58,656 nucleotides of DNA from the IMG/VR virus record IMGVR_UViG_3300032334_000389, positions 1-58,656 of that record; one strand, written 5' to 3'. The translations under genes were made by a program, and so were the position numbers. This document shows, in pieces, positions 8,379 to 12,431 of this stretch. This stretch comes from a virus. Taxonomy: Duplodnaviria > Caudoviricetes. A model generated the notes under the pieces. It saw nothing but the letters and a program-made list of their open reading frames with translations. It was not told the origin of the DNA and did no database searches. The number at the start of each line of letters is the position of its first letter. Position 1 is the stretch's first letter.

Positions 8379-8548
8379 TTATGTCAGAATGTCGATTTTA
8401 TTCTCTCTATTCTCTTATATATATTTTTATTTATTTATTTATTTTTTTTACCTAGAAAGTAAAGAAAAAATCAGAATACTAACATAGAAAACGTTAAGCC
8501 TTGATTTCATTAACCTCAAGGCTATGACGTTTCTAAAAAAAATCGACA
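8379..8548 (+). repeat. Long imperfect inverted repeat, copy A (partner 10472-10642)
   Basis: Exact inverted blocks: 8407-8428 vs 10592-10613 (22 nt) and 8465-8488 vs 10532-10555 (24 nt); matching TTATGTCAGAA and AAAATCGACA ends. Confidence 0.9.
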
Positions 8549-8564
8549 TTGTTGTGTCGATAAT

Positions 8565-8720
8565 CTAGCATAACTTCCGAATTTCTTTTATATTTCTATA
8601 GTTTGGATTCGTGTTAAAGAATTTCTTCATCGCCTCGATACTATCGTTGGCTTCAATTTCTATTTCTTTTGTAAAGATATTGTCGTCAACTTCGCCCTGA
8701 TATTCGATTACATACTTCAT
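8565..8720 (-). CDS. Hypothetical protein (51 aa, MKYVIEYQGEVDDNIFTKEIEIEA...)
   Basis: Read manually; ATGA overlap with 8717..9058. Confidence 0.6.
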   Translation of the reverse strand: MKYVIEYQGEVDDNIFTKEIEIEANDSIEAMKKFFNTNPNYRNIKEIRKLC

Positions 8721-9058
8721 AGTTTAATGCTTTTAAAGTACTCCATATCGAATTTATATTCGTCACCATTGTAACTTGGATTGAAGGCTAAGACCTGCAT
8801 TTTGTCCGTCACTAGTGCAATGCTTTCCTGTGTCATAACTGAGGCGATGTTCTCAAAGTCCTGCAGTATCTTTGACTGCCTTGAGTACTTGTACTCCATA
8901 AGCCCCACAAATGTAGGCTCTACGTTTCCATTAAATTCCGCGTCGACTATTTGATAGGCCATAAGTCGATACTCTTTATTGCTTGCGATGTAGCTTATTA
9001 CACCTTCAGGTGTAAATAGGTTGTTGTTAAGTCCGATGTTTACTTGTAGTGTTCTCAT
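8717..9058 (-). CDS. Hypothetical protein (113 aa)
   Basis: ORF track; VNIGLNNN...EPTFV...QESIA. Confidence 0.75.
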   Translation of the reverse strand: MRTLQVNIGLNNNLFTPEGVISYIASNKEYRLMAYQIVDAEFNGNVEPTFVGLMEYKYSRQSKILQDFENIASVMTQESIALVTDKMQVLAFNPSYNGDEYKFDMEYFKSIKL

Positions 9059-9063
9059 TTTGT

Positions 9064-9222
9064 TTATTTATTAAATGTCCCCTCGTTTGTTGGGACGTGG
9101 TTATTAATTAGTTCTTTTAATCTTTCTAGGCTTTGCGCTTCTACATAGCCTTTACCTACATAGGCACGAAAGATAGTTCTAGTCGTGCCGTTAAATTCCT
9201 GCTCGTATGTTTCGTAGTTCAT
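9064..9222 (-). CDS. Hypothetical protein (52 aa, MNYETYEQEFNGTTRTIFRAYVGKGY...)
   Basis: Read manually; TAATG coupling. Confidence 0.55.
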   Translation of the reverse strand: MNYETYEQEFNGTTRTIFRAYVGKGYVEAQSLERLKELINNHVPTNEGTFNK

Positions 9223-9335
9223 TAGTTTATTGTTATAACGTTATTAATATCTAATATAACTAGTAACACGGCAAAGGCCATTACTGTAATGGTAAAATAA
9301 ATTTCACCTTCATTTCTTTTAATAAATGATTTCAT
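9222..9335 (-). CDS. Small single-pass membrane protein (37 aa, MKSFIKRNEGEIYFTITVMAFAVLLVIL...)
   Basis: Read manually. Confidence 0.55.
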   Translation of the reverse strand: MKSFIKRNEGEIYFTITVMAFAVLLVILDINNVITIN

Positions 9336-9336
9336 C

Positions 9337-9441
9337 TTAGTTAATGATTTTAGTTAATTCGATAATTGAAATAGTTGTTACGACTGTTAAGAGTATAAAT
9401 ACAAATATACTCTGCCCTGGATTTTGTTTTATTGCTTTCAT
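9337..9441 (-). CDS. Small single-pass membrane protein (34 aa, MKAIKQNPGQSIFVFILLTVVTTISII...)
   Basis: Read manually; ATGA coupling. Confidence 0.55.
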   Translation of the reverse strand: MKAIKQNPGQSIFVFILLTVVTTISIIELTKIIN

Positions 9442-9617
9442 TTTTTTTCTACTTTTAAAGTTATACAGTCCTGTTTATATATTAATACTTCATTTTTACT
9501 TTCTCCTACATTTGTACTATCAATAGGAGTAAAACCGTTTATTTTAATTAAGAATTCTAATTCTGATACTGAAATTTTATTCTCGTTAAAAATTTTTGCT
9601 ATTTGTTTTAAGTTCAT
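9438..9617 (-). CDS. Hypothetical protein (59 aa, MNLKQIAKIFNENK...), first gene downstream of the hammerhead
   Basis: Read manually; A-rich leader. Confidence 0.55.
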   Translation of the reverse strand: MNLKQIAKIFNENKISVSELEFLIKINGFTPIDSTNVGESKNEVLIYKQDCITLKVEKK

Positions 9618-9636
9618 TTTAATAAAGTTTTAAAGT

Positions 9637-9691
9637 TTACCGTTTCGTCCTTTTAGACTCGTCAGTCGAGGCACTCACCTCGAGACAGTAA
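9637..9691 (-). ncRNA. Type III hammerhead self-cleaving ribozyme
   Basis: UUACUGUC / stem I UCGAGG-UGAGUG-CCUCGA / CUGACGA / stem II GUCU-AAAA-GGAC / GAAA / CGGUAA; all core nucleotides and three stems present; GUC cleavage triplet ends at 9684. Confidence 0.93.
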
Positions 9692-9812
9692 CGACCTTAT
9701 AACTATGTAGTTTGTTAGTATCGTAGCTTCGCTTTTTACACTGAGTAGCCACACCCGCAGTTATCCTCTTGTCGAGTGTCAAATTAAAACTAGTTGTTTC
9801 GTTTTGACATTG

Positions 9813-9845
9813 CAAACATACGACAACAATACAATTCACTCCAAA
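9813..9845 (-). promoter_or_regulatory. Bacteroidota primary-sigma promoter for the leftward early operon
   Basis: TTTG (-33), 21-nt spacer, TATGTTTG (-7) on the minus strand. Confidence 0.8.
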
Positions 9846-10059
9846 TTTTTAACATAATTTTAACAGTATTATCGATGAACTACATAGTTTTACCGATTAA
9901 ATGCATAATCAATAAAGTATATTCTTACAATTATCTTTTGATATATTCTAACTTGTTGATAATTAGTAAGTTAAGATAAATGTATGTTTTGTATATATAG
10001 AACGCGTGCGCGCGTGTGTGTCGTGTGGGAAGTAATTGCCTATCGCTTTCTATCTTTCC

Positions 10060-10124
10060 ATAGATTTTATCTATCATAGATTATTTCTATAGGCCAATTG
10101 ATAAACCTTATAGTTACCTTTCAT
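10060..10124. repeat. Array of ATAG-N7-CTAT-like dyad boxes
   Basis: ATAGATTTTATCTAT (10060-10074), ATAGATTATTTCTAT (10076-10090), degenerate copies at 10097-10111 and 10110-10124. Confidence 0.55.
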
Positions 10125-10199
10125 CGTAAGAAAAACCTTAAGGCTTGGGGTTTATGTTGTGTCGATTAGTAACAATTCTATTTTACATAATAGCCGACA

Positions 10200-10226
10200 A
10201 CAAACGGTTACAAACGACTACAAACG
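10200..10226 (+). repeat. Three ACAAACG repeats at 10-bp periodicity
   Basis: Copies start at 10200, 10210 and 10220. Confidence 0.7.
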
Positions 10227-10441
10227 GGAGGCATAGGGACGTAAAATGTAGGCCGTCCTCCAGGAAGGCACCCGCCCAGGAAAAGCCAAAAACTTTGCAG
10301 GAAAATTCTGAAATTGGAACCCCCGTGTCGAAATTGAAGTCGCTTTCTTATAGCGATTCGGCGCGCAAATCCTATATATAACCCAAATACCCCACATTTC
10401 TACCCTATTTTTTTATCTCATCCCTTGCCACCAAAGGGCTG

Positions 10442-10481
10442 TGTCGATTTTTTAACTCTATGTCGATTTTGTGTCGATTTT
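10442..10481 (+). repeat. Three TGTCGATTTT direct repeats (iteron-like)
   Basis: Copies at 10442, 10461 and 10472; the same motif occurs at 8390 and inverted at 8539-8548. Confidence 0.8.
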
Positions 10482-10642
10482 AAAAAAGTTTGTCATAAGA
10501 TAACTTCTTGATTATTAATACTTTAACTATCTCTATGTTAGTATTCTGATTTTTTTCCTATTTCTACAGAAAAAAAAATAAAATATATATAAAAAATATA
10601 TATAAGAGAATAGGGAAGAAATTTTTGACATTTCTGACATAA
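10472..10642 (-). repeat. Long imperfect inverted repeat, copy B (partner 8379-8548)
   Basis: Same blocks as copy A in inverted orientation. Confidence 0.9.
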
Positions 10643-10684
10643 GCCTATTTTTAAATAGTATTAAATCCGTATATAAATTTATAC

Positions 10685-10692
10685 TATATTTG
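10685..10692 (+). promoter_or_regulatory. Bacteroidota -7 box upstream of the chaperonin operon
   Basis: TATATTTG(CA). Confidence 0.65.
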
Positions 10693-10718
10693 CATCATAA
10701 TAATCTAATTTATTTTAT

Positions 10719-10844
10719 ATGGAAATTACAATCACACCACACTATCTATTGTTTGGTTTATCCTGGTTCTTACCAGAAGAGGAGTACGACTACTCAGAAG
10801 TCAACATCTACATCTTATGTTTACACATTCAATTTACATTTTAA
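10719..10844 (+). CDS. Small hypothetical protein (41 aa, MEITITPHYLLFGLSWF...)
   Basis: Read manually; lies between the promoter and groEL. Confidence 0.55.
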   Translation: MEITITPHYLLFGLSWFLPEEEYDYSEVNIYILCLHIQFTF

Positions 10845-10847
10845 TCT

Positions 10848-12431
10848 ATGAACGACTTAGTATTTGACAAGGAAGGAAGAGACAAGCTGGTAAAAGGTAT
10901 AACTACAATCAGTAAGGCCGTAAAGAGCACGTTGGGACCAAGGGGTAAGACGGTGCTAATTGAATCACAGAACCACACGAACGGCATAACCATCACCAAG
11001 GACGGTGTCACGGTTGCTAAATCAATTAACCTAAAGGATCCAGTTGAGAACCTTGCGGTTAGAATGATGAAGGAGGCCGCTGACAGGACTGCTACTAGTG
11101 CTGGTGACGGAACAACCACAGCGATCGTGCTCACTGAGGCTATGGTCACAAGGGGTAACGAGTTCATCACGGATAGGAACAACGCGACAGAGGTGCTGCG
11201 TAACGTGAACACTGTAGTGGACGGTGTGGTGAAGAGCCTAGAGAAGGTGAGTAAGAAGGTGAGTGGTAAGACGCTGAAGGACGTTGCGTCTATATCAGCT
11301 AACAACGACAGGGAGCTGGGTGCTATTATTGCTGACGCGTATAACAATGTCGGTAAGGAGGGTATCGTTACGGTTGAGAACTCGCAAACGGACAAGACCT
11401 ACAGCGAGGTGACCAACGGGATCAAGATAGACAGGGGCTACACGAGCAGACTGTTCGTGAACGATATGAAGAAGGAGGAGTGCATAATGGAGGACGTGTA
11501 CATTATGGTGACGGACCAGGAGATAAGTAACATACTGTCGATTGAGAACGTGCTGAAGCCGATCATAAATGGACAGAAGAAGTTATTGATAATTGGACCG
11601 TGTACTGGCAACGTGATAAACACGCTGGCCGCGAACGTGGCTCATAATAACTTGAAGTTCTGTAACATTCAGCCACCACAGTTTGGGTACAAGCAGCAGG
11701 AGCTGATGCAAGACATCGCGCTTGCGGTTGGGGCGAAGTACTTCAGCGAGCAGACGGGTGACGATTTGAGTCTAATCTCTATAGACCACCTTGGTAAGGC
11801 GGACAGGGTGATCGTTGGAAGGGACAGCACAGTCTTGGTTCGAAGCGAGACCTCAAACGAGGCGATTAGAGAGCGCGTTGAGCAGCTGTGGATACAGCAC
11901 AACAACTCAACGAGAAAGAACGACAGGGACGCGTTAAAAGAACGTATAGCGTCACTTACAGGTGGTGTTGGAGTTATATATGTTGGAGGAGGATCGGACG
12001 TGGAGCAGAAGGAGCGCTACGACAGGGTTGATGACGCGGTCTGCGCGGTAAGGTCGGCGCTAGAGGAGGGTATACTTCCAGGTGGAGGTGTGGCGCTGTA
12101 TAATATTGCGTCTGATATCATAGCGTACGCGGACGATAATATGGAGCACATAAGCCACGACCAGTACACCGCGATGCAGATCGTAGGATGGGCGATACAG
12201 TCACCGCTGCTGCAGATAATGGACAACGCTGGTAAGGACGGTTACGAGATGATGTCAGACGTAAACACACCAGGACACGGATACGATGTGAAGAACGAGT
12301 GCTACGGTGATATGTTCGGGATGGGGATCATAGATCCGCTGAAGGTTACGAAGAACGCGCTGAAGAACGCGGTCAGTGTAGCCACAACGATACTAAGCAC
12401 GAACGCAATCATAACCTTAACACGAGCGTAA
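10848..12431 (+). CDS. groEL: Chaperonin GroEL (Cpn60)
   Basis: STLGPRG, TKDGVTVAK, AGDGTTTA, ALEEGILPGGG and GIIDPLKV motifs. Confidence 0.97.
   Translation: MNDLVFDKEGRDKLVKGITTISKAVKSTLGPRGKTVLIESQNHTNGITITKDGVTVAKSINLKDPVENLAVRMMKEAADRTATSAGDGTTTAIVLTEAMVTRGNEFITDRNNATEVLRNVNTVVDGVVKSLEKVSKKVSGKTLKDVASISANNDRELGAIIADAYNNVGKEGIVTVENSQTDKTYSEVTNGIKIDRGYTSRLFVNDMKKEECIMEDVYIMVTDQEISNILSIENVLKPIINGQKKLLIIGPCTGNVINTLAANVAHNNLKFCNIQPPQFGYKQQELMQDIALAVGAKYFSEQTGDDLSLISIDHLGKADRVIVGRDSTVLVRSETSNEAIRERVEQLWIQHNNSTRKNDRDALKERIASLTGGVGVIYVGGGSDVEQKERYDRVDDAVCAVRSALEEGILPGGGVALYNIASDIIAYADDNMEHISHDQYTAMQIVGWAIQSPLLQIMDNAGKDGYEMMSDVNTPGHGYDVKNECYGDMFGMGIIDPLKVTKNALKNAVSVATTILSTNAIITLTRA

What the first reader, a model, noticed from the sequence alone, without database searches (positions are those of the whole stretch)
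9637..9691. Canonical type III hammerhead ribozyme in the 5' leader of the phage early operon
Seen (minus strand): UUACUGUC^UCGAGG-UGAGUG-CCUCGA-CUGACGA-GUCU-AAAA-GGAC-GAAACGGUAA. Stem III (UUACUGU/ACGGUAA), stem I (6 bp), stem II (4 bp), the CUGANGA and GAAA core and a GUC cleavage triplet are all intact. Loop I starts with U and loop II ends with A, which fits the tertiary contact of fast natural hammerheads. It lies about 120 nt downstream of a consensus promoter and ends 19 nt before the first start codon. Known: hammerheads cut after the NUH triplet, leaving a 5'-OH and a 2',3'-cyclic phosphate, and their roles in phage and bacterial genomes are largely unexplained. Inference: cleavage at 9684/9683 gives the early polycistronic mRNA a hairpin-capped 5'-OH end, which could resist 5'-monophosphate-dependent decay, and frees a leader RNA. 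This would be a self-processing control of phage early expression.
Basis: partly seen in the sequence, partly recalled or inferred. Interest (0 to 1): 0.9.

Follow-up and report, generated by a model that had tools for sequence, protein, structure and literature searches.

The report
Hammerhead ribozyme in phage early leader
A genuine self-cutting hammerhead RNA sits between a conserved folded leader and the first small gene of the leftward operon of an uncultured Flavobacterium-type phage; it is a further example of the phage hammerheads known since 2011, whose purpose is still untested.

Summary
The motif is real. At 9637-9691 (minus strand) every hammerhead core base, three helices and a GUC cleavage triplet are present. 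Rfam's type III model gives 43.3 bits, E 3.6e-6 for the whole window, below its curated cut-off of 48.5. Forty distinct look-alikes from uncultured phages keep 96.7% of 600 pair cells, and all six stem I pairs covary. The window is a complete 58.7-kb phage related to Flavobacterium and Cellulophaga phages. A Bacteroidota-type promoter (TTTG-N21-TATGTTTG, 9845-9813) lies 122 nt upstream and is conserved in relatives. Cultured Elemovirus phages carry the same promoter, leader and hammerhead before the first gene of the same operon. The leader itself is conserved and folded and is not in Rfam. In the wider family the ribozyme lies 22-33 nt before a start codon in 38 of 39 cases, mostly between genes. 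The best reading is an autonomous transcript-cutting site. The proposed stabilising effect is plausible but untested, and no RNA data exist. This is a new member of a known kind (Perreault 2011). This scan has noted similar phage hammerheads on other DNA many times.

The parts
9842..9845 (-). -33-like box TTTG of a Bacteroidota-type promoter
   Evidence: Pattern match TTTG-N21-TATGTTTG at 9845-9813. TTTG stands 21 nt before the -7 box in 6 of 9 aligned rows (the window plus relatives L004, L007, L008, L010, L250) while the spacer varies; L011 has it at 20 nt. The function as a promoter is inferred.
9813..9820 (-). -7 box TATGTTTG (an exact TAnnTTTG)
   Evidence: Identical in 9 of 9 rows that hold this region: the window plus relatives L004, L007, L008, L010, L016, L250, L011 and L012. 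The cultured elemoA phage has TATATTTG at the same place. The consensus TAnnTTTG for Bacteroidota is recalled knowledge.
9777..9809 (-). 5'-terminal hairpin of the leader (UGUCAAA ... UUUGACA)
   Evidence: It is the first helix of the minimum-energy fold of 9810-9618. The same hairpin sequence is seen in L004, L007 and L010.
9692..9760 (-). Conserved structured leader domain: hairpin GUGGCU (9752-9747) with AGCUAC (9728-9723), then a second helix that ends at the ribozyme
   Evidence: In the 8-sequence alignment A2, 97.7% of 171 cells are paired and 10 of 22 pairs changed on both sides. None of 500 shuffles reached these values, and slid controls gave 28-47%. The window and cultured elemoA share 52 of 70 aligned leader bases, against 34 of 55 in the ribozyme. 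There is no Rfam match. The window carries a shortened version of this leader.
9637..9691 (-). Type III hammerhead ribozyme; predicted cut between 9684 and 9683
   Evidence: Rfam RF00008 43.3 bits. Covariation is shown. Homologues stand at the same site in L004, L007, L008, L011, L016 and in the elemoA, C and D phages.
9618..9636 (-). A-rich, SD-less translation start region (AACUUUAAAACUUUAUUAAA)
   Evidence: The same junction sequence precedes the first genes in relatives with and without a ribozyme. Within the window the 11-mer is not over-represented (5 found, 3.96 expected).
9438..9617 (-). First ORF behind the ribozyme, 59 aa, an orphan
   Evidence: ORF list. No Pfam or PHROG family. No tblastn match in 15 related loci. 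Only one other protein at 95% identity among 5.8 billion.

Best explanation
This is a genuine and very probably active type III hammerhead in the 5' leader of the phage's leftward (probably early) transcript.

Proposed sequence of events:
- Transcription starts about 9807, from a Bacteroidota-type promoter.
- The RNA folds into a 5' hairpin, a conserved structured leader and the ribozyme.
- The ribozyme cuts itself after C9684, without help from any host RNase.
- The cut separates a leader of about 125 nt, ending in a 2',3'-cyclic phosphate, from the mRNA body.
- The mRNA then begins with a 5'-OH on U9683, which is paired in the 6-bp stem I hairpin. Stem II and an unstructured A-rich start region follow, 66 nt before the ATG.

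The job is to cut the message just upstream of a start region, so that the downstream genes are expressed from a standard 5' end whatever lies upstream. This makes it a natural counterpart of the engineered RiboJ insulator and an RNase-independent counterpart of the RNase III sites in T7 early mRNA.

What is shown: the motif, its conservation, its position, and the conservation of the promoter boxes. What is inferred: the start site, cleavage in vivo, and any gain in stability or translation.
For: 1. All core bases are consensus, and Rfam HH3 gives E 3.6e-6 for the window.

2. Forty distinct family members were chosen by loop and core letters only, with stems I and III left free. They keep 96.7% of 600 pair cells. 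Stem I is paired in 100% of cells with all 6 pairs covarying. None of 500 shuffles reached these values, and slid controls gave 34-44%.

3. Seven stretches were chosen by a leader motif about 110 nt upstream, not by the ribozyme. All 7 have the core letters. Stem II varies among them as GUCA/UGAC, GAGG/CCUC and GGCG/CGCC.

4. Position is constrained. The distance from GAAA to an ORF-opening ATG is 22-33 nt in 38 of 39 cases (one is 49; one locus ends too early to tell). In 31 of 40 cases a same-strand ORF stops 12-55 nt upstream, so the element is usually intercistronic.

5. Type II forms with the same loop 1 lie between a stop codon and an SD plus ATG in high-GC phages (18 of 18 inspected).

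6. The element stays while the first gene behind it differs. The window's 59-aa ORF has no match in 15 related loci.

7. Cultured Flavobacterium phage elemoA has the promoter, leader and hammerhead directly before gp62, the first leftward gene at the strand switch.

8. Published context. Hammerheads flank single genes in prophages and cleave in vitro and in E. coli, and processing of long phage transcripts was proposed (Perreault 2011, PMC3088659, passages; review PMC6765202, section 13 passage). RiboJ raised protein 2- to 10-fold and transcript about 2-fold in E. coli (PMC6206723, abstract).
Against: - There is no cleavage assay and no RNA data.
- The Rfam score is below the curated cut-off (43.3 against 48.5).
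- The short RNA alone does not fold better than shuffles (z -1.49).
- Predicted accessibility of the start region rises only from 0.64 to 0.67 on cleavage (39 cases, Wilcoxon p 0.06). The computation gives no support for a translation effect.
- The 7-pair stem III, which the fold extends further, may keep the leader annealed after the cut.
- Two relatives with the same promoter manage without a ribozyme (L010, L002). The closest named relative, MW202828.1, has none either.
- The leader is more conserved in sequence than the ribozyme (74% against 62% to elemoA). This suggests the leader, not the mRNA end, may be the point.
Confidence: 0.6

Rival explanations
1. The ribozyme mainly makes the 3' end of a functional small RNA. 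On this reading the conserved structured leader (about 125 nt here, about 200-330 nt in relatives) is the product that matters. It would be released with a cyclic-phosphate end and act in trans or as a decoy early in infection. The 5'-OH mRNA would be a by-product.
For: - The leader is folded, with compensatory changes.
- It is more conserved in sequence than the ribozyme between the window and cultured elemoA (52 of 70 against 34 of 55 bases), although their terminases share only 46.6% of residues.
- All 8 type A leaders and the 3 printed type B leaders (L007, L008, L250) end in a hammerhead.
- Relatives with a third kind of leader have no ribozyme (L010, L002).
- The leader matches no Rfam family.
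Against: - In the wider family, 31 of 40 ribozymes follow a protein gene, not such a leader, so the ribozyme design is not tied to this RNA.
- The window's own leader lacks the 5' half found in relatives.
- No target, partner or expression data exist.
- The covariation rests on only 8 related sequences, and the structure was derived from the same alignment.
Confidence: 0.2
2. The leader is a sensor (for a ligand, a protein or temperature) that controls whether the hammerhead folds. Cleavage would then be a regulated switch for early gene expression.
For: - A long conserved structured leader lies directly against stem III, and its last helix ends where the ribozyme begins.
- The bases AAGGUCGUUA just 5' of stem III are almost invariant although they lie outside the ribozyme.
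Against: - No riboswitch or other Rfam family matches the leader.
- I found no conserved alternative pairing that masks the core.
- The minimum-energy fold of the whole leader already contains the active junction.
- Most family members have no leader at all.
Confidence: 0.1
3. The ribozyme is a passenger. It would be a conserved junction module that travels with gene cassettes and mainly offers homology for cassette exchange, with little effect on expression.
For: - The stretch 9340-9777 is a variable module among relatives.
- L002/L238 keep only the 3' half of a hammerhead before a gene.
- L250 joins the 5' half of the L007 type to the 3' half of the window type.
- The same start-region sequence bounds cassettes with and without a ribozyme.
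Against: Strict upkeep of the core, and compensatory changes in all three stems across distant phages, indicate selection on the folded RNA and not only on DNA homology.
Confidence: 0.07

Closest known systems
Type III hammerhead ribozyme (Rfam RF00008, clan CL00010)
   Same: It has the same core, three helices with stem III open, a GUC site, and a 6-nt loop 1 beginning with U with a tetraloop 2 ending in A.
   Different: It scores 43.3 bits, below the curated 48.5. Close relatives with perfect cores score only 16.8-25.7 bits, so this phage subfamily is poorly covered by the Rfam model.
Hammerheads flanking single genes in prophages and phages (Perreault et al. 2011, PMC3088659; passages read)
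   Same: It is an intergenic ribozyme just before a gene in a phage operon among small accessory genes. An ArdC-like gene lies next to one family member, and the paper notes ardA directly behind a hammerhead.
   Different: Here a single copy stands in a promoter-proximal leader behind a conserved structured RNA, in an SD-less Bacteroidota-type phage. The paper reports type II as the commonest bacterial form.
RiboJ, the engineered hammerhead insulator placed between promoter and ribosome-binding site (PMC6206723, abstract read)
   Same: The place (promoter, leader, ribozyme, start region) and the expected products are the same. By recall, not tested, it has the same architecture as the satellite-RNA hammerhead from which RiboJ was derived.
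   Different: This one is natural. It has no added hairpin downstream, and its effect on expression has not been measured.
RNase III processing sites between phage T7 early genes (recalled knowledge, no call)
   Same: Both are structured elements at cistron junctions of an early phage transcript that cut the message into units. Relatives L010 and L002 carry a plain hairpin at the ribozyme's place.
   Different: The hammerhead needs no host enzyme and leaves 5'-OH and cyclic-phosphate ends.
Hammerheads in 5' UTRs of fungal and plant RNA viruses, needed for translation initiation (Lopez-Galiano et al. 2026, PMC13725137, abstract read)
   Same: Both are self-cleaving ribozymes in a viral 5' UTR upstream of the ORF.
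   Different: Those act in eukaryotic cap-independent translation, on RNA genomes, and are mostly type I.

Membership tests
Hammerhead ribozyme, type III | Conserved core C3 U4 G5 A6 N7 G8 A9 and G12 A13 A14 | tested here: met
   CUGACGA is at 9665-9659 and GAA at 9646-9644. It aligns to all 54 model positions.
Hammerhead ribozyme, type III | A15.1-U16.1 pair and an NUH cleavage triplet (H is not G) | tested here: met
   A9643 pairs with U9685, and the triplet GUC is at 9686-9684. Relatives use GUC, GUA, UUC, CUA, AUC or GUU.
Hammerhead ribozyme, type III | Three helices around the core, with stems I and II closed by loops and stem III open, supported by covariation | tested here: met
   Across 40 sequences, 96.7% of cells are paired and 11 of 15 pairs changed on both sides; none of 500 shuffles reached this. 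RNAalifold recovers the same structure on 8 further-chosen sequences.
Hammerhead ribozyme, type III | Loop 1 to loop 2 tertiary contact (5' U of loop 1, 3' A of loop 2, extra pyrimidine in loop 1) | tested here: met
   In the window loop 1 is UGAGUG and loop 2 is AAAA. Loop 2 was left free in the regex; its positions 2 and 4 are A in 40 of 40 and position 3 is A in at least 90%. In a scan that did not fix loop 1, 133 of 136 hits have a stem I hairpin, most often with loop U-GUGU-R. The motif is as described in the abstract of PMC2632901. Only the sequence was tested, not the contact.
Hammerhead ribozyme, type III | Score at or above Rfam's gathering threshold for RF00008 | tested here: inconclusive
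   The score is 43.3 bits against 48.5, so the motif is not listed at gathering, but E is 3.6e-6 for the window. The cut-off is an annotation rule, not a property of the ribozyme.
Hammerhead ribozyme, type III | Site-specific self-cleavage giving 2',3'-cyclic phosphate and 5'-OH ends | not testable with these tools
   No RNA run holds the phage, so no reads were laid.
Phage operon-punctuating hammerheads (Perreault 2011) | Lies in a phage genome, in a non-coding gap on the coding strand, directly before a gene | tested here: met
   The record is a phage. The ribozyme is on the minus strand like the ORFs downstream, 19 nt before the ATG. In the family it is 22-33 nt from an ATG in 38 of 39 cases.
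Phage operon-punctuating hammerheads (Perreault 2011) | Several ribozymes flanking genes in one operon | tested here: not met
   The window holds only one hammerhead of any Rfam type at E up to 1 and one match to model R1. Other family contigs hold 2-3 (L037, L046, L099, L110), and L008 has two.

The most novel reading that the evidence does not exclude
The hammerhead may be the 3'-end-forming module of an unnamed, conserved, structured leader RNA. That RNA is absent from Rfam and is shared by this phage, several uncultured relatives and the cultured Elemovirus phages of Flavobacterium. It would be made in quantity from the first leftward promoter. On this reading the released RNA, ending in a cyclic phosphate, is a phage-encoded small RNA with its own role in host takeover or counter-defence, and the ribozyme couples its release to the start of early translation.
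Probability: 0.2. Interest if true: 0.7.

Novelty: new member of a known kind. Interest (0 to 1): 0.38.

Why it matters
What bacterial and phage hammerheads are for has been open since 2011. The 2019 review still calls for work to define their purpose (PMC6765202).

This case adds no new kind of element, but it does offer three things:
- A simple arrangement: one promoter, one leader and one ribozyme.
- A positional rule for SD-less phages: the ribozyme ends about 20 nt before the start codon.
- A culturable system with the same arrangement, Flavobacterium sp. BAL314 with the elemo phages, in which a dead-ribozyme mutant could be tested.

It also shows that Rfam's type III model under-scores this abundant phage subfamily.

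Tried and rejected
Steps that led nowhere or were rejected:
- Default Rfam scan: nothing at gathering.
- Megablast of 8500-11500 against phages: no match. Blastn of the 66-nt element against phages: only 4 marginal hits (E 2-6), uninformative.
- Sigma-70 promoter scan: 8 sites against 9.4 expected, none at 9780-9850.
- RNA evidence: no RNA holder listed among 20 runs.
- Does cleavage free the start region? Predicted unpaired fraction is 0.64 uncleaved against 0.67 cleaved in 39 cases, p 0.06. There is no clear effect, and the energy model folds the ribozyme poorly.
- Is the leader a tRNA mimic or a known RNA? ARAGORN finds none in the window or in 8 loci, and Rfam finds none.
- Are the ORFs in 9692-10847 genes? 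Their translations look non-protein-like, and both strands appear 'conserved' at the DNA level, so I treat the 1.15 kb as non-coding.
- The leader-specific viral scan found only the 3 known relatives.
- The metagenome scan gave 18 stretches: 8 with a hammerhead, 1 remnant and 9 chance matches.
- Of the 92 matches to the first viral pattern, 37 passed my first regex. Of the remaining 55, 18 inspected are type II hammerheads, 2 are cut by contig ends, and most of the remainder lie in coding sequence and were dropped as chance.
- Model R1 includes the window's own sequence, so its 72.4 bits for the window hold by construction. Only the elemo, phi19:3 and L013 hits are independent.
- Supplements of the papers were closed. 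Perreault's supplementary alignments might already contain members of this subfamily.

Full report
WHAT IS THERE

On the minus strand of 9691-9637 the sequence reads as a complete type III hammerhead:
- Stem III is UUACUGU with ACGGUAA (7 pairs, one U-G).
- The unpaired C17 is at 9684.
- Stem I is UCGAGG with CCUCGA.
- Loop 1 is UGAGUG.
- The core is CUGACGA.
- Stem II is GUCU with GGAC, closed by loop AAAA.
- GAA and A15.1 follow.

The predicted cut falls between 9684 and 9683. Nineteen bases separate the element from the ATG at 9617, which opens a 59-aa ORF.

Rfam's Hammerhead_3 model aligns end to end at 43.3 bits. E is 2.2e-8 on 351 nt, 3.6e-6 on the whole window against all 4227 families and 8.6e-10 for the genome. 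The curated cut-off is 48.5 bits, so the default scan reports nothing. No other ribozyme family reaches E 1 anywhere in the window.

The isolated 61-nt RNA is not unusually stable (z -1.49). The minimum-energy fold of the 193-nt leader, however, contains exactly the hammerhead junction.

THE GENOME

The window is a whole IMG/VR virus record of 58,656 bp with direct terminal repeats, rated 100% complete. It encodes terminase, portal, a GroEL-like chaperonin, a Sak-like annealing protein, exonucleases and a primase/helicase.

Its terminase finds 87 phage records: Flavobacterium 68, Cellulophaga 15, Tenacibaculum 2, Maribacter 1 and one uncultured. The best match is 72.1% identical, and the elemo phages are 46.6% identical. 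A Bacteroidota (flavobacterial) host is therefore likely.

The genes to the left of the ribozyme are all on the minus strand: small ORFs, then recombination and replication genes. The 1.15 kb between the ribozyme and the rightward GroEL gene holds no convincing gene.

PROMOTER

The sigma-70 scan finds nothing upstream. An exact Bacteroidota-type pair, TTTG-N21-TATGTTTG, lies at 9845-9813. That pattern alone is not rare (3 found, 1.66 expected).

In relatives the TATGTTTG box is identical in 9 of 9 rows. TTTG stands 21 nt before it in 6 of those rows and 20 nt before it in one more, while the spacer differs. This is the pattern expected of a real promoter.

The start site would be near 9807, giving a leader of about 125 nt before the cut.

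RELATIVES AT THE SAME SITE

Fifteen loci were fetched through the GroEL gene. My model R1 finds a hammerhead at the homologous leader site in five of them (L004, L007, L008, L011, L016) and one elsewhere, between two genes, in L013. Five loci are too short to reach the site.

Stem I reads UCGAGG/CCUCGA, GCAAAG/CUUUGC or UCAGGG/CCCUGA. Stem II reads GUCU/GGAC, GUCG/CGAC, GUCC/GGAC or GUCA/UGAC.

L010 and L002 have the same promoter but a plain hairpin directly before the same start region. L002 also keeps the 3' half of a hammerhead before its second gene.

The stretch 9340-9777, with the ribozyme and the 59-aa ORF, is a variable module. That ORF has no match in the 15 loci and only one 95% twin in the protein collection.

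THE WIDER FAMILY

A scan of viral contigs for loop 1 plus the 5' core gave 90 stretches. After filtering there were 56 complete type III elements, 40 of them distinct.

The filter fixed loop and core letters and helix lengths but left stems I and III free. On these 40 sequences:
- 96.7% of 600 cells pair.
- Stem I pairs in 100% of cells, and all 6 of its pairs covary.
- 4 of 5 stem III pairs covary.
- None of 500 shuffles reaches these values, and slid controls give 34-44%.

Position is tight:
- From GAAA to an ATG that opens an ORF is 22-33 nt in 38 of 39 cases. One case is 49 nt, and one locus ends too early to tell.
- In 31 of 40 cases a same-strand ORF of at least 40 aa stops 12-55 nt before the element. 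One of these, L008, is probably a spurious ORF inside a leader.

The usual setting is therefore intercistronic. The window and its close kin are the leader variant.

Neighbouring genes are accessory or of unknown function: an ArdC-like protein, a gamma-glutamyl cyclotransferase fusion, and one recurrent family of about 300 aa in 11 of 18 cases, with no Pfam or PHROG match for the three members scanned (L092, L061, L078).

Many of the other pattern hits are type II hammerheads with the same loop 1, sitting between a stop codon and an SD plus ATG in high-GC phages (18 of 18 inspected). A type I hammerhead precedes the next gene in L008. The cultured Cellulophaga phage phi19:3 has a type I hammerhead between gp051 and gp050.

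A CULTURED COUNTERPART AND A CONSERVED LEADER

Model R1 finds one hammerhead each in Flavobacterium phages elemoA, elemoC and elemoD (44.5 bits, E 3e-11). It finds none in MW202828.1, phi46:3, phi38:1, Calle_3 or Gundel_1.

In elemoA the hammerhead lies directly before gp62, the first leftward gene at the strand switch. It stands behind TTTG-N19-TATATTTG and a leader that aligns with the window's.

A scan for a leader motif, not for the ribozyme, gave 7 stretches. All have an intact hammerhead core downstream.

On 8 distinct leaders RNAalifold predicts two helices before the ribozyme. Counted on that structure:
- 97.7% of 171 cells pair.
- 10 of 22 pairs changed on both sides.
- None of 500 shuffles reaches this, and slid controls give 28-47%.

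The caveats are that there are only 8 related sequences and that the structure was derived from the same alignment.

The window and elemoA share 74% of aligned leader bases (52 of 70) but only 62% of ribozyme bases (34 of 55). No Rfam family matches these leaders, and no tRNA-like gene is called. The window's leader is a shortened version that lacks a 5' domain present in L004, L016, L011 and elemoA.

HOW IT MOST LIKELY WORKS

I take it as an autonomous cutting site that separates whatever lies upstream from the start region of the next gene. Upstream is a structured leader here and a preceding cistron in most family members.

The downstream RNA would begin with a 5'-OH on a base paired in stem I. 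The upstream RNA would end in a cyclic phosphate.

This matches the proposal for prophage hammerheads (PMC3088659, passages; PMC6765202, passage) and the behaviour of the engineered RiboJ insulator in E. coli (PMC6206723, abstract).

The specific claim of protection from 5'-monophosphate-dependent decay is reasonable by analogy but rests on no data here:
- Type I forms at equivalent junctions leave no hairpin on the mRNA, so the shared feature is the cut, not the cap.
- My accessibility computation showed no clear gain for translation.
- The conserved leader keeps open a second reading, release of a functional small RNA, which I rate at about 0.2.

NOVELTY

The ribozyme class, its presence in phages and its position before genes are all in print. 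Two full-text searches (terms included hammerhead, self-cleaving, phage, bacteriophage and Bacteroidetes) listed no paper whose title or abstract start concerns hammerheads in Bacteroidota phages. One search returned only 4 papers holding all its terms, and none is on the subject. I did not open those papers.

This scan has noted phage hammerheads many times on other DNA: 195 notes hold the search words. One of them also reports a ribozyme, a tRNA mimic or a hairpin alternating at the same junction.

The finding is therefore a sound new member of a known kind. It has a useful cultured counterpart and an unexplained conserved leader.

Noticed in passing
window 9692-10847, with 8388-8497 and 10523-10632: A non-coding region of 1.15 kb at the strand switch is 74-86% conserved in relatives. 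It holds repeats of AATCGACA(C/T) and a 110-nt inverted repeat pair (75% complementary) that brackets the promoter-ribozyme-small-gene cassette. This looks like an origin or operator region.
   Followed up: partly
L011:636-693, L037:11266-11323 and 8487-8544, L046:8850-8907, L099:6143-6200, L013:939-996: Otherwise canonical hammerheads carry a mismatch at the 10.1-11.1 position next to the core: U-U in 5 of 40 family members and A-A in L013. These occur in independent stem contexts. Perreault 2011 rejected such hits by rule, so this may be a tolerated natural variant.
   Followed up: no
L024, L034, L040, L042, L047, L056, L063, L068, L074, L084, L098 and others: Type II hammerheads with the same loop 1 (UGAGUG or UGUGUG) occur in high-GC phage contigs. 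They often start at or overlap the stop codon of the upstream gene (CTAGGACGAAAC) and end 10-25 nt before an SD and ATG.
   Followed up: partly
The listed hits are mostly Saccharibacteria and other Patescibacteria MAGs. Of 136 matches, 133 have a stem I hairpin, most often with loop U-GUGU-R.
   Followed up: partly
L002 about 1690-1710 (the same sequence in L232 and L238): Only the 3' half of a hammerhead (loop 2, the stem II 3' strand, GAAAC and the stem III 3' strand) remains before a gene, joined to unrelated sequence. This looks like a recombination scar inside the ribozyme.
   Followed up: no
L250:10180-10243: This hammerhead has a stem III 5' strand like L007 and a 3' strand and start region like the window. 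The pairing is kept by a U-G pair. It may be a recombinant between two leader types.
   Followed up: no
L004, L007, L008 hammerheads: Rfam RF00008 scores these canonical hammerheads at only 16.8-21.6 bits (L011 scores 25.7), while the family-specific model R1 gives 72-76 bits (these sequences are in its training set). The curated model under-detects this phage subfamily.
   Followed up: partly
NC_021789.1 21781-21828 (L265:982-1029, minus strand): The cultured Cellulophaga phage phi19:3 has a type I hammerhead that overlaps the end of gp051 and lies about 40 nt before gp050. Its minimum-energy fold is the three-way junction.
   Followed up: partly
L092:2025-2963, L061:12653-13651 and 9 others: One protein family of about 190-340 aa (N-terminal motif like GIQYTLTGE..RG.V..YH.KP) lies directly upstream of the hammerhead in 11 of 18 cases examined. 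The three members scanned have no Pfam or PHROG match.
   Followed up: partly
L010:2515-2600 and L002:1930-2012 (minus strand): Relatives with the same promoter have a third kind of long leader that ends in a plain hairpin (L010 z -3.3), exactly where the others have the hammerhead.
   Followed up: partly
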